From assembly GCF_963921235.1 (NCBI RefSeq), contig NC_086097.1, positions 59,770,001-59,834,000 of the forward strand: 64,000 nucleotides of DNA. The letters are read 5' to 3'. Below, piece after piece: positions 61,346 to 64,000 of the stretch. A model generated the notes under the pieces. It did no database searches, was not told the DNA's origin, and saw nothing but the letters and a program-made list of their open reading frames with translations. Source of the stretch: Mobula hypostoma (Eukaryota). A program made the translations under genes and the position numbers. How positions within the stretch are numbered: the stretch's first letter is position 1; each line of letters starts with the position of its first letter.

Positions 61346-62995
61346 TTCTTCTTTCTATTTCTTTGTCTAGTTTTTGCATCTCGATCTTGGGAAGCTGCAT
61401 TTAGTTTACTGGAGTATTCTCTTATTAATTTTTTTTAAAACTTCTTTGAGTACAAGAAGGAGAAGACTGCGTAGGCGTATGATGCAGACAGGACAGCGCA
61501 GAGAGTTTAAAAAGAAGACCACCCTATACAGCGGGCAGCGGAGTGAGTGGCAGCAGAGTGTAGGGCTTTGGCTCAACAGGCTTAGGCGGTAACGGGAAGA
61601 GGTGTAAGCGAAGCACCAACTCTTTTTTTCTCCTTCGCGAGTTGGTCCGGACAGACAGGAACAGTAGGGCTCACACAGCTAACGGTATGAGCGAACGGTT
61701 TAAAAAGTTCGTGTTTGGCAAGGTAAGTGGGTGAGTGGACTTATTTTTCATTGTTTCATTCCTACGGAATTAGGTGACATGTCGGCAGGATTAGTGCTTT
61801 GTTCAGGATGTCAGATGTGGGAATCCTGGGAGACCTCCAGCCTCCCTGATGGCCACATCTGTGCCAGGTGCACTGAGATGCAGCTCCTCAGAGACTGTTT
61901 TAGGGATCTGGAGCTGCAGCTTAATAACCTACAGCTTATTAGGAAAAGTGAAGAGGTGATAGACAGGAGCTACAGGGAGGTAGTCATCCCTAGGCTACAG
62001 GGGTCAGAAAACTGGGTGACTGTCAGGAGAGGGAAGGAAAATGCCCGAATAGTGGAGAGCACACCTGTGGCTGTCCCCCTCATCAACAAATATCTTGTTC
62101 TGGATGCTGTTGAGGGTGATGACCTGACAGGGGACGGCCACGGTGACCGGGTCTCTGGCACTGAGCCTGGCGCTATGGTGCAGGAGGGAAGGAGGGAGAA
62201 GAGGAATGCGGTAGTCATAGGGGATTCCATAGTCAGGGGAACGGACAGGAGATTCTGTGAGCCTGATAGAGATATCCGCATGGTGTGTTGCCTCACAGGA
62301 ACCAGGGCACGGGATGTTTTGGATCGGGTCCAGAATATTCTGAAGGGAGAGGGCAAACAGCCAGCTGTCTTGGTATATGTTGGTACCAATGACATAGATA
62401 GGAAAAGGGAGGGGGTCCTGAAGAGAGATTTCCGGGAGTTAGGAAGGAAGCTGAGAAGCAGGACCTCCAGGGTAGTAACCTCGTGATTGCTACCTGTGCC
62501 ACGTGCTAGCAAGGGCAAGAATAGAAGGATTAGGCAGATGAATGCGTGGCTGAGAGACTGGTGCAGGGGGCAGGCCTTCAGATTCTTGGATCACTGAGAT
62601 CTCTTCTGGGGGAAGTATGACCCGTTCAAAAAGGACAGGTTACACCTGAACCCGACGGGGACCAATATCCTGGCGAGAAGGTTTAATAAAGCTGTTAGGG
62701 AGGGTTTAAACTAATTTGGCAGGGGAATGGGAACCGGAATTATAGAGCAGAGGAGGGGAAAACAGAAATAATTCTAAGATAGTGAGCAGTAAAGATGTCA
62801 GGAAGGATAGGCAGATGATGGGGCAAATTTGCAGCCATTGGGATGAATTGCAGTGCAATAAAGTTGCAGTGCAATCAATGCAAAAAGTACCAAATACTGG
62901 ACTTAAGGTGTTATACTTAAATGCACCCAGCATAAGGAATAACGTGGATAATATTTGTTGTACAGTTACAAATTGGTAGGTATGATATTGTGGCC

Positions 62996-63565
62996 GTATG
63001 GGGGTATATGGGGTGTCAGGGAGGGGTAGCACCTCTGGTGGGGGAACATGTCGTGTCCTTTTCAGGGCGGATAGTCCACCTTTGGTCCCCACCTGGCACT
63101 CAGCTGTCACCCGTGGCTCCCCGTAGCTGTTTGCATGCGACAGTGGCCACACTCCGGGCAATGGCTTCGACAAGCTGGCTAAACCAGGTGAGGGTAGCCG
63201 ACGGGTCTCAAACCCTCGGTGAGATAGGGACTTGTCTATACCAGCATGTGAAGACAGACTCCGGCGGATTGAGCGGACGAGACCAATGGAAGGTCCAACG
63301 GTCAAGAAGGCGGTCTCCGCAAGCGTCGTGGAACGTGTAGAGCAAGACAAGACACAGAAGATGTCCTGGTCACCCACTGCGCCTAGTCCCATCTCCAGCC
63401 GTCTAGACTCTGTCTTGCCACTGGATCCAGACGGGAATTGGGAAGAGAGAGTGAGGCTGACGCTGCGCAACTCTCCCTCACTTAAATCCAAATCACGTGC
63501 TAGTCTCGACACCATCATTATGGTGTCGAGGTCCTCATCGACATCAATGATGGACAAACAACAAC
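62996..63565 (+). mobile_element. Non-autonomous RTE-type short retroelement
   Basis: 9-bp TSD ATTGTGGCC (62987-62995, 63566-63574), (CAA)n tail, CpG-rich, no Pol III boxes and no credible ORF; interrupts the CR1 endonuclease motif YDIVA|IIETW. Confidence 0.9.
63010..63191 (+). ncRNA. HDV-like self-cleaving ribozyme candidate
   Basis: P1 63010-63016/63149-63155, P2 63107-63114/63183-63191, P3 63115-63117/63146-63148, L3 UCCCCGU, P1.1 CC/GG, GCAA, P4 hairpin and GGCUAA with catalytic C63179. Confidence 0.75.
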
Positions 63566-64000
63566 ATTGTGGCCATAATTGAGACGTGGCTAAAGGATGC
63601 ATGTCTCTGGGAGCTGAACGTCCAAGGATACACAGTGTATCGGAAGGATAGGCAGGTAGGCAGAGAGGGTGGCATGGCTTTATTGGTAAGAAATGATATT
63701 AAATCTTTAGAAAGAGGTAACATAGGATCGGAAGGTGCAGAATCTTTATGGGTTGAGCTAAGAAATCGCAGGGGTAAAAGGACCCGGATGGCAGTTTTAT
63801 ACAGGCCTCCAAACAGCTGCAGTGATGTGGACTACCAACTACAAAAGCAAATAGAAAAGGCTTGTCAGAAGGGCAGTGTTATGATAATTGTGGGGGATTT
63901 TAACATGTGAGTGGATTGGAAAAATCAGGTCGGCACTGGATCTCAAGAGAGAGAATTTGTAGAACGTCTGCGAGATGGCTTTTTAGAACAGCTTATTGTA

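What the first reader, a model, noticed from the sequence alone, without database searches (positions are those of the whole stretch)
62996..63565. Short non-coding retroelement headed by an HDV-like ribozyme with an extra hairpin in L3
Seen: every helix of the nested double pseudoknot can be drawn in order. P1 is GGGGUGU (63010-16) with ACACUCC (63149-55); P2 is UCACCCGU (63107-14) with ACCAGGUGA (63183-91, one C-A mismatch and one bulge); P3 is GGC/GCC; L3 begins UCCCCGU with U and G at the HDV U20/G25 positions; P1.1 is C63119-C63120 with G63156-G63157; then GCAA, a P4 hairpin and GG-C-UAA, matching the genomic HDV G40-A43 and G73-A78 arrangement. J1/2 is about 90 nt and structured, and a hairpin (GCUGUU...GACAGU, 63126-63144) sits at the dispensable U27 position. 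The predicted cut (63009/63010) is 14 nt from the 5' TSD. Established: HDV-like ribozymes process the 5' ends of R2, RTE and related LINEs. Inference: this is a promoter-less SINE-like family that cuts itself out of read-through transcripts and borrows RTE machinery; I do not know of this L3-insertion variant being described. A competing helix (63011-20 with 63092-101) could block P1 and act as a switch.
Basis: partly seen in the sequence, partly recalled or inferred. Interest (0 to 1): 0.88.

Follow-up and report, generated by a model that had tools for sequence, protein, structure and literature searches.

The report
Ribozyme-headed short retroelement family
This is one slightly decayed copy of an abundant short non-coding jumping element whose first 200 bases have every sequence hallmark of a large hepatitis-delta-type self-cutting RNA, most likely cutting at the element's first base; the kind is known, but this version has unusual extras.

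Summary
The element (63001-63565) is a target-site-duplicated insertion in a LINE endonuclease ORF. It belongs to a family with 2441 exact copies of a 22-base head word in this genome.

The window copy is mutated.

Across three subfamilies the 45 HDV-core positions never vary, against 44 of 149 other positions (p=1.5e-6). P4 and the inner J1/2 helices covary. P1, P2, P3 and P1.1 are invariant, so the double pseudoknot has no covariation proof. Cleavage is untested.

Two corrections. The "competing helix" is kept in all subfamilies and fits the known P1.2 domain of large HDV-like ribozymes, so the likely cut is 63000/63001.

No LINE partner was found, though the (CAA)n tail and A-first duplications fit RTE. 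The conserved L3 hairpin appears unreported. Verdict: a new variant of a known kind.

The parts
62987..62995 (+). 5' target-site duplication ATTGTGGCC
   Evidence: Identical 9-mer at 63566-74. Contigs of other runs read the host LINE straight across the empty site (loose ends at 62995 and 63566).
62996..63000 (+). 5 extra junction bases GTATG between the duplication and the element start
   Evidence: Such extra bases (1-14 nt) occur in 14 of 27 copies with a duplication of 8 nt or more.
63001..63007 (+). First GGGGURU repeat: proposed true P1 5' strand, with cleavage 5' of G63001. It reads GGGGUAU in this copy and GGGGUGU in 21 of 23 unbiased copies.
   Evidence: In 13 of 27 copies the duplication abuts this G exactly. 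In one search, X19 has 133 contigs whose likeness ends at 63001.
63010..63016 (+). In the revised model 63011-16 belong to P1.2.
   Evidence: 94.1% of cells pair with 63149-55, no covariation.
63011..63101 (+). Structured J1/2 domain closed by helix 63011-20 with 63092-101 (proposed P1.2)
   Evidence: The MFE folds use it. The closing helix is kept in A, B, D and E by one-sided and indel-linked changes. The inner helix has 8 of 12 pairs with changes on both sides.
63103..63113 (+). P2 5' strand (core 63106-13). This copy carries private changes C>G at 63106 and T>C at 63112.
63115..63117 (+). P3 5' strand GGC
   Evidence: 97% paired, invariant.
63118..63125 (+). L3 5' part, UCC NN GU A. U63118, C63119-20 (P1.1) and G63123 are invariant. 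63121-22 vary (CC, AA, AG, AU).
63126..63144 (+). Hairpin inserted in L3 (stem GCUGU/ACAGC)
   Evidence: Present in A, B, D and E, with a different loop in E. The core without it occurs only 16 times genome-wide.
63146..63148 (+). P3 3' strand GCC
63149..63155 (+). P1 3' strand (ACACUCC here, ACACCCC in the consensus)
   Evidence: C at 63153 in 28 of 30 and 21 of 23 copies.
63156..63157 (+). P1.1 3' strand GG
63158..63161 (+). J1.1/4 (GCAA in A, UACA in B, UAAA in E)
63162..63177 (+). P4 hairpin. The consensus is CGGCUU/AAGCCG with loop CGAC. This copy has two C>U wobble changes.
   Evidence: 5 of 6 pairs have changes on both sides across subfamilies. Sequences.
63178..63184 (+). J4/2 with the candidate catalytic C63179 followed by N-A-A
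   Evidence: C, A and A are invariant in A, B and E. The N is U or C.
63185..63195 (+). P2 3' strand (core 63185-92)
   Evidence: (95.6% paired).
63196..63504 (+). Non-coding body of the element
   Evidence: No Pfam domain. Homologous to subfamily B along its length, about 80% identical over the first 380 nt.
63505..63555 (+). Two 3' terminal hairpins (63505-30 and 63531-55)
   Evidence: Read from the sequence. The 20-mer 63508-27 occurs 328 times exactly in the genome.
63556..63565 (+). (CAA)n-type tail AAACAACAAC
63566..63574 (+). 3' target-site duplication ATTGTGGCC

Best explanation
The window holds one decayed copy of a high-copy, non-coding, SINE-like non-LTR retroposon.

Its first ~195 nt encode a large HDV-like self-cleaving ribozyme. 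In the family consensus the layout is:
- P1 is the element's first 7 nt (GGGGUGU, window 63001-07) paired with ACACCCC (63149-55).
- A 3-nt linker leads into a ~90-nt structured J1/2 domain closed by a 10 bp helix (63011-20 with 63092-101), which would be P1.2.
- A 1-nt linker leads into an 8-11 bp P2 (63103/06-13 with 63185-92/95).
- P3 is GGC/GCC.
- L3 is UCCNNGU, followed by an inserted hairpin.
- P1.1 is CC/GG.
- P4 is a 6 bp hairpin.
- C63179 in J4/2 is the catalytic base.

Inferred mechanism: copies lying in other transcripts are co-transcribed. The ribozyme cuts 5' of G63001 and frees an RNA that starts at the element's first base. A LINE enzyme, RTE-like by its insertion signature, binds the 3' hairpins and (CAA)n tail and reverse-transcribes that RNA at T|A target sites.

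Shown here: family membership, exact 5' ends, the sequence anatomy, the conservation pattern and the peripheral covariation. Inferred: catalysis, the cut site, dependence on read-through transcription, and the partner enzyme.
For: Family and ends:
- 4859 first-look candidates, of which the 40 scored are 95-96% identical.
- 2441 exact head 22-mers in the genome.
- The family is also present in contigs of four runs from four coded organisms.
- Of 27 copies with a duplication of 8 nt or more, 13 have the duplication abutting the first G, 3 have one extra T and 11 have 4-14 extra nt.
- Only L015 and L018, of the 30 copies read, start near the second repeat, and both keep 2-3 upstream bases.

Core:
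- The consensus gives an all-Watson-Crick P1, an 8-11 bp P2 and a 6 bp P4.
- 0 of 45 core positions vary among the A, B and E consensuses, against 44 of 149 other positions (Fisher p=1.5e-6).
- L3 varies only at the two positions between CC and G.

Structure under selection (89 copies):
- 91.0% of cells are paired, against 33-49% when partners are slid.
- 26 pairs have changes on both sides (0 of 500 shuffles reach this). They lie in P4 (5 of 6 pairs) and the inner J1/2 helix (8 of 12 pairs).

Chance: the strict descriptor found 0 hits in 38.4 Mb of shuffles.

Model choice:
- The nested part with first-repeat P1 plus P1.2 scores -72.2 kcal/mol, against -53.3 for second-repeat P1.
- The consensus MFE contains P1.2, the 11 bp P2 and P4.

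Literature:
- A structured P1.2, short linkers and an extended P2 activate large HDV-like ribozymes (PMC4908430, passages).
- R2 elements that cut at the element end have variable 5' junctions, and a quarter have mismatches at the top of P1 (PMC3774820, abstract and sections 12, 16).
- A (CAA)n tail with A-first duplications is typical of animal RTE and its SINEs (PMC6007223, section 16). Here A is first in 19 of 27 copies and T is at -1 in 19 of 27.
Against: - No cleavage assay and no RNA 5'-end data were available.
- P1, P2, P3 and P1.1 never vary between subfamilies, so the double pseudoknot has no covariation support.
- No Rfam HDV-type model matches.
- The first pair of P1 is G-C rather than the G.U wobble I recall from HDV and CPEB3.
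- There is one unpaired U between P2 and P3, and J4/2 is 2 nt longer than in HDV.
- A 20-nt hairpin inside L3 has no precedent that I found, and it could disturb the active site.
- First-repeat P1 pairs in only 83.3% of cells, against 94.1% for the second repeat.
- The window-like lineage carries GGGGUAU, an A-C mismatch at P1 position 6, in 21 of the 30 copies closest to the window, yet it amplified.
- The nested MFE (-85.7 kcal/mol) pairs the P3 5' strand with J4/2, so an inactive fold competes.
- Folding energy is no better than shuffles.
- My relaxed descriptor, written after seeing the sequence, hits random sequence about once per Mb.
- No partner LINE was found.
Confidence: 0.62

Rival explanations
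1. One reading: the same HDV-like ribozyme, but P1 is the second repeat (63010-16) and the cut is 63009/63010. The helix 63011-20/63092-101 then competes with P1 as a switch.
For: The second repeat is better conserved and pairs with 63149-55 in 94.1% of cells, against 83.3% for the first. It is GGGGUGU in all subfamilies. Lineages with a mismatched first repeat still amplified. Both P1 options pass my descriptor.
Against: Such a cut would remove 63001-09 from the RNA, yet those 9 nt are inherited. Ends pile up at 63001 in this genome and in other organisms' contigs. No sampled subfamily starts at 63010. The 'competing' helix is kept in A, B, D and E. Losing it costs about 19 kcal/mol in the nested model.
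Confidence: 0.1
2. A conserved structured 5' domain without catalysis. The RNA 5' end would come from transcription initiation at the first G by an internal promoter. The conserved segments would serve protein binding, stability or reverse-transcriptase recognition, and the HDV likeness would be coincidental.
For: There is no covariation in the pseudoknot helices and no Rfam match. The L3 insertion is atypical. Precise 5' ends are also what a fixed start site gives. L1Tc's Pr77 shows that a promoter and a ribozyme can share one sequence (PMC3383444, abstract).
Against: Many features sit at exactly the HDV-prescribed places:
- The first 7 nt are complementary to the 7-mer directly after the P3 3' strand, followed by GG opposite the L3 CC.
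- L3 is U-CC-NN-G.
- C-N-A-A lies just before the P2 3' strand.
All are invariant while neighbouring positions vary. The strict descriptor gave 0 hits in 38.4 Mb of shuffles. No tRNA, 5S or 7SL-like head was found in Rfam.
Confidence: 0.22
3. A chance resemblance in an ordinary repeat.
For: The relaxed descriptor gives about one hit per Mb of random sequence. The window copy alone has a weak P2 and an unremarkable folding energy.
Against: The family consensus improves every helix. The core is invariant, p=1.5e-6. Peripheral helices covary. P1 coincides with the 5' end that the duplications define independently.
Confidence: 0.04

Closest known systems
Large HDV-like ribozymes of the drz-Agam-2 type (Webb et al. 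2016, PMC4908430, passages read)
   Same: A nested double-pseudoknot core. A long J1/2 that folds into a helical peripheral domain (P1.2) joined by short linkers (3 nt and 1 nt here). An extended P2: 11 bp here, 12 bp in Agam-2.
   Different: There is no detectable sequence or Rfam-model likeness. This one has an extra hairpin in L3, a duplicated P1 5' strand, and a vertebrate-like host genome. Activity is untested.
R2 5' ribozyme and its non-autonomous SIDEs (PMC3774820 abstract and sections 12, 16; PMC3414825 abstract in the search listing)
   Same: A ribozyme at the extreme 5' end frees the element RNA from a co-transcript. Internally deleted, non-coding derivatives keep the ribozyme and the 3' end. 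Elements that cut at the element end have variable 5' junctions, and mismatches at the top of P1 are tolerated.
   Different: R2 and its SIDEs insert site-specifically in 28S rDNA. This family is dispersed, with 8-14 bp duplications and a T|A preference. No autonomous relative was found.
L1Tc/NARTc L1TcRz of Trypanosoma cruzi (PMC3185411 and PMC3383444, abstracts)
   Same: A SINE-like non-autonomous element (NARTc) shares a 5' HDV-like ribozyme with its LINE, and cleavage is at the element's first base.
   Different: L1TcRz is a minimal 77-nt ribozyme that doubles as a promoter. This one is about 195 nt with peripheral domains, and no LINE sharing the head was found among the 30 loci sampled by the head word.
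RTE and Baggins HDV-like ribozymes (Ruminski et al. 2011, not held; known only through review PMC6765202 section 11)
   Same: Promoter-less elements are processed out of read-through transcripts. The (CAA)n tail and A-first duplications here fit animal RTE and its SINEs (PMC6007223 section 16).
   Different: No RTE sharing either end was found. I could not read the primary paper.
Genomic HDV ribozyme (layout recalled from memory, not from a call)
   Different: The first P1 pair is G-C, not G.U. J1/2 is 98 nt. There is a 20-nt hairpin in L3. J4/2 is 2 nt longer.

Membership tests
HDV-like self-cleaving ribozymes | Five pairings, P1, P2, P3, P1.1 and P4, in the nested double-pseudoknot order | tested here: met
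   All are drawable in the window copy and are stronger in the family consensus. 91% of cells are paired in 89 copies, against 33-49% when slid. This rests on complementarity only.
HDV-like self-cleaving ribozymes | Covariation that proves the pseudoknot helices P1, P2, P3 and P1.1 | tested here: inconclusive
   These pairs are invariant between subfamilies. Departures are scattered single-copy decay.
HDV-like self-cleaving ribozymes | A catalytic C in J4/2, followed by purines that dock on P3 | tested here: met
   C63179-N-A-A is invariant in A, B and E.
HDV-like self-cleaving ribozymes | L3 with a conserved U and G and two bases that pair with the two bases after P1 (P1.1) | tested here: met
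   L3 reads UCC NN G, with only the NN varying. The GG follows the P1 3' strand directly. The importance of the L3 G is stated in PMC3774820 section 12.
HDV-like self-cleaving ribozymes | Site-specific self-scission 5' of the first base of P1 | not testable with these tools
   Only indirect evidence: genomic 5' ends coincide with G1 of the first repeat.
Rfam HDV-type families (covariance models) | A score at or near the family threshold | tested here: not met
   No hit at gathering score or at E<=10. These models hold no pseudoknot and would have to absorb a 98-nt and a 20-nt insertion, so this weighs little.
Large HDV-like ribozymes with a P1.2 domain | A helical J1/2 domain with short linkers plus an extended P2 | tested here: met
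   A 10 bp helix 63011-20/63092-101 with linkers of 3 nt and 1 nt, and an 11 bp P2. This holds only if P1 is the first repeat.
SINE (classical) | A head derived from tRNA, 5S or 7SL with an internal Pol III promoter | tested here: not met
   No such Rfam match at E<=10 in 62900-63650. Hence 'SINE-like' only.
Non-autonomous non-LTR retroposon | Duplications, a 3' microsatellite tail, no ORF, many dispersed copies | tested here: met
Non-autonomous non-LTR retroposon | A 3' end shared with an autonomous LINE | tested here: inconclusive
   0 genome matches for the tail in a non-family context. The most abundant intact LINE has an A-rich tail. Only exact-pattern searches were possible.
RTE-mobilised retroposons | A (CAA)n-type tail with A as the first base of the duplication, and T-rich DNA upstream | tested here: met
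   A is first in 19 of 27 copies, T is at -1 in 19 of 27, and T makes up 44-56% at -15 to -10. The criterion comes from PMC6007223 (abstract and section 16). The sample is small, and the tail/duplication boundary is ambiguous.

The most novel reading that the evidence does not exclude
A widespread vertebrate retroposon superfamily carries a new structural class of HDV-like ribozyme. L3 is opened into a three-way junction by a conserved hairpin. The substrate strand of P1 is duplicated in tandem, so that one copy forms P1 at the RNA's first base while the other closes the activating P1.2 domain. The second copy could also serve as a spare P1 after 5' erosion. This would put thousands of self-cleaving ribozymes into vertebrate transcripts.
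Probability: 0.3. Interest if true: 0.75.

Novelty: new variant of a known kind. Interest (0 to 1): 0.58.

Why it matters
If the consensus cleaves, this would be a very abundant HDV-like ribozyme family in a vertebrate-type genome. There are 2441 exact head words here, and relatives appear in contigs from at least four other coded organisms.

Every copy embedded in sense orientation in a gene would be a potential transcript-cutting site.

It would show that the HDV active-site loop L3 tolerates an inserted helix. It would add a natural example of the P1.2 'pinch' design, and a system with two alternative substrate strands.

It would also give a clean case of a non-coding element that defines its own RNA 5' end without a promoter.

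Tried and rejected
- RNA evidence. No RNA holder was listed and all 24 runs are contigs, so starts and ends of RNA could not be read. The contigs were used only for sequence variants and family boundaries.
- Rfam. Nothing was found.
- Earlier notes of this scan. Nothing was found for this place or sequence. The word search gave unrelated genomes.
- Partner LINE. None of the 30 loci sampled by the head word is longer than about 600 bp. The A and B tails have no orphan LINE-like hits in the roughly 270 kb held at that point. Two tail patterns that require a non-family upstream gave 0 hits. The top 150 RT matches all belong to one LINE family, and the one copy I read has an A-rich tail, so it is not the partner.
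- Relatives without the L3 hairpin. Only 16 sporadic copies, mostly with deletions.
- Subfamily D. The pattern matched only L061 itself, so D rests on one decayed copy.
- Coding potential. The 119-aa plus-strand frame and the antisense frame have no Pfam domain above cut-off. The antisense stop-free frame spans the element in 25 of 30 A copies but is absent from the B consensus, so I take it as inherited chance.
- An alternative P2 (63090-96 with 63184-90, 7 bp) was rejected. It lies 18 nt from P3, and its 5' strand belongs to the conserved P1.2 helix.
- An alternative with the hairpin as P3 was rejected. Its loop is not conserved and lacks the CC.
- Literature. Full-text searches did not surface an HDV-like ribozyme with a helix in L3 or one in a vertebrate SINE. 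One search was swamped by RTEL1 papers. Ruminski et al. 2011 is not held, and Webb et al. 2009 and Webb & Luptak 2011 were not read. Supplements were not opened.

Full report
WHAT IS THERE

The window lies in a 3.48-Gb genome of 200 contigs. At 63001-63565 sits a 565-bp element. It is flanked by the 9-bp direct repeat ATTGTGGCC (62987-95 and 63566-74), with 5 extra bases, GTATG, at the 5' junction.

The element interrupts a LINE endonuclease reading frame..YDIVA|IIETWL... The downstream part matches Pfam Exo_endo_phos at E=4.3e-9. Contigs from other runs read the uninterrupted LINE across the site.

The element ends in two hairpins (63505-30, 63531-55) and AAACAACAAC. It has no Pfam domain in its long frames. 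It has no Rfam match, and so no tRNA, 5S or 7SL head.

THE FAMILY

- A search with the 570 bases 62996-63565 found 4859 first-look candidates. The 40 that were scored are 95-96% identical.
- Exact-word counts over the whole genome are 2441 for a 22-mer of the head and 328 for a 20-mer of the 3' hairpin.
- An older, CpG-decayed subfamily B has 829 matches to its P4 motif.
- A young subfamily E has 25 matches to its L3-hairpin motif.
- Subfamily D is a single decayed copy, L061.
- I read 30 copies closest to the window, 30 B copies, 30 copies sampled only by the head word, and 20 short E stretches.
- None of the 30 head-sampled loci is longer than about 600 bp.
- Contigs of four runs from four coded organisms also hold the family.

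All are present as described. But the window copy differs from the family majority at eight positions in the ribozyme region. Six of these lie in helices:
- 63106 C>G and 63112 T>C, both in P2.
- 63144 C>T, in the L3 hairpin.
- 63153 C>T, in P1.
- 63162 and 63176 C>T, in P4.

For example, T stands at 63112 in 28 of 30 and 23 of 23 copies.

The consensus therefore gives:
- P1 GGGGUGU/ACACCCC, all Watson-Crick.
- P2 CUCACCUG/CAGGUGAG, 8 bp, extendable to 11 bp (63103-13 with 63185-95).
- P4 CGGCUU/AAGCCG with loop CGAC.

CONSERVATION AND COVARIATION

Between the A, B and E consensuses, none of 45 positions of the HDV core varies. The core here means P1, P2, P3, P1.1, the L3 U, CC and G, and C-AA of J4/2. 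By contrast, 44 of the 149 other positions vary (one-sided Fisher p=1.5e-6). L3 reads UCC-NN-GU with NN = CC, AA, AG or AU.

On 89 aligned copies the full model has 91.0% of cells paired, against 33-49% when partners are slid. It has 26 pairs with changes on both sides, which 0 of 500 shuffles reach.

The compensatory changes sit in the periphery:
- P4, 5 of 6 pairs. A has CGGCUU/AAGCCG, B has CCGCUU/AGG(C/U)GG, E has CCGUCU/AGACGG.
- The inner J1/2 helix, 8 of 12 pairs.

P1, P2, P3 and P1.1 do not vary between subfamilies. That says nothing for or against them.

CHANCE

- My relaxed descriptor hits shuffled sequence about once per Mb: 8 hits in 7.68 Mb. It misses the window copy.
- Across 594 kb of real loci (both strands counted) it gave 39 family hits and 2 others. 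One of those two is a mutated family copy.
- A strict version found 0 hits in 38.4 Mb. A and E pass it; my B consensus fails because of a decayed P4.
- Both descriptors were written after seeing the sequence.
- Folding energy alone is unremarkable.

WHERE THE RNA STARTS

Copies begin GGGGTRTAT GGGGTGTC.., that is, with a tandem duplication of the P1 5' strand.

- Among 27 copies with a duplication of 8 nt or more, 13 have the duplication abutting the first G exactly, 3 have one extra T, and 11 have 4-14 extra bases.
- In other organisms' contigs, likeness also ends at 63001. X19 has 133 such contigs, with unrelated flanks.
- Only L015 and L018, of the 30 copies read, start near the second repeat, and both keep 2-3 upstream bases.
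An RNA cut at 63009/10 could not pass on 63001-09.
- The first repeat is GGGGTGT in 21 of 23 unbiased A copies, and in the E consensus and the single D copy. The GGGGTAT form marks the window-like lineage, at 21 of 30 copies.

THE 'COMPETING' HELIX

The helix 63011-20 with 63092-101 is kept in A, B, D and E. Changes are wobble to Watson-Crick, and in B a base insertion is coupled to a U>G change opposite it. The MFE folds of the window copy and of the consensus both form it.

With P1 placed on the first repeat, the layout becomes: P1, 3 nt, a helix-closed 90-nt domain, 1 nt, an 11 bp P2. This is the design that Webb et al. 2016 showed to activate large HDV-like ribozymes: a structured P1.2, short linkers and an extended P2 (PMC4908430, passages).

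I therefore place the cut at 63000/63001 and read the helix as P1.2, not as a switch. A role for the second repeat as an alternative or spare P1 is not excluded.

FIT TO KNOWN BIOLOGY

- R2 elements whose ribozyme cuts at the element end show variable 5' junctions. About a quarter have mismatches at the top of P1 (PMC3774820, abstract and sections 12, 16). This matches the junction heterogeneity here and the A-C mismatch at P1 position 6 of the window-like lineage.
- Non-autonomous elements headed by HDV-like ribozymes are already known: NARTc (PMC3185411 and PMC3383444, abstracts), R2 SIDEs (PMC3414825, abstract), and a general statement in review PMC6765202 section 11.

THE PARTNER

The partner was not found. 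The (CAA)n tail, A as first base of the duplication (19 of 27), T at -1 (19 of 27) and T-rich DNA at -15 to -10 fit the signature reported for animal RTE and its SINEs (PMC6007223, abstract and section 16). This is suggestive only.

WEAKNESSES

- There is no cleavage or RNA-end data, and only contig runs were on hand.
- There is no covariation in the core and no Rfam hit.
- The first pair of P1 is G-C.
- One U lies between P2 and P3, and J4/2 is longer than in HDV.
- The L3 hairpin has no precedent in what I could search. The main surveys were not readable.
- The nested MFE includes an inactive pairing of the P3 strand with J4/2.

VERDICT

The element is a probable new structural variant of a known kind.

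Noticed in passing
L032, L035, L039, L044, L046, L054, L055 (subfamily B loci): 7 of 30 subfamily B copies lie at the same place inside another repeat. About 260 nt upstream is conserved and AT-rich, with a TATAAAA-like stretch, and the downstream flank is conserved too. The duplication is about 11 nt (TGYTGCCRTGT). In these copies the first repeat is reduced to ..GTGTAT. This is either a composite that was amplified as a unit or a preferred insertion site.
   Followed up: partly
window 63001-63565, minus strand (frame 62706..63698): One antisense frame has no stop codon across the whole element in 25 of 30 A copies, and runs 330 codons in the window. It has no Pfam hit. My B consensus has 3 stops in its best antisense frame, so this is probably inherited chance.
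   Followed up: yes
window 62880-64000 and beyond: The host is a LINE with an APE endonuclease domain (..LKVLYLNA.. YDIVAIIETWL..), frame-shifted upstream of the insertion. It runs off the window end.
   Followed up: partly
L084: Two family copies lie in tandem about 68 bp apart, in the same orientation.
   Followed up: no
G000:C1:59838087-59838108, about 4 kb beyond the window end, minus strand: Another copy of the family head word lies close to the window copy, in the opposite orientation.
   Followed up: no
genome-wide; L112: The 150 best RT-domain matches all belong to one very abundant LINE family (332,531 first-look candidates). Many copies have open frames of up to 1264 aa (one of 1317). 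The one 3' end I read has an A-rich tail and is inserted in another ETWL-type LINE.
   Followed up: partly
27 family copies with a duplication of 8 nt or more: The insertion sites show a T|A preference: T at -1 in 19 of 27 copies and A as first base of the duplication in 19 of 27. The DNA 10-15 nt upstream is T-rich.
   Followed up: partly
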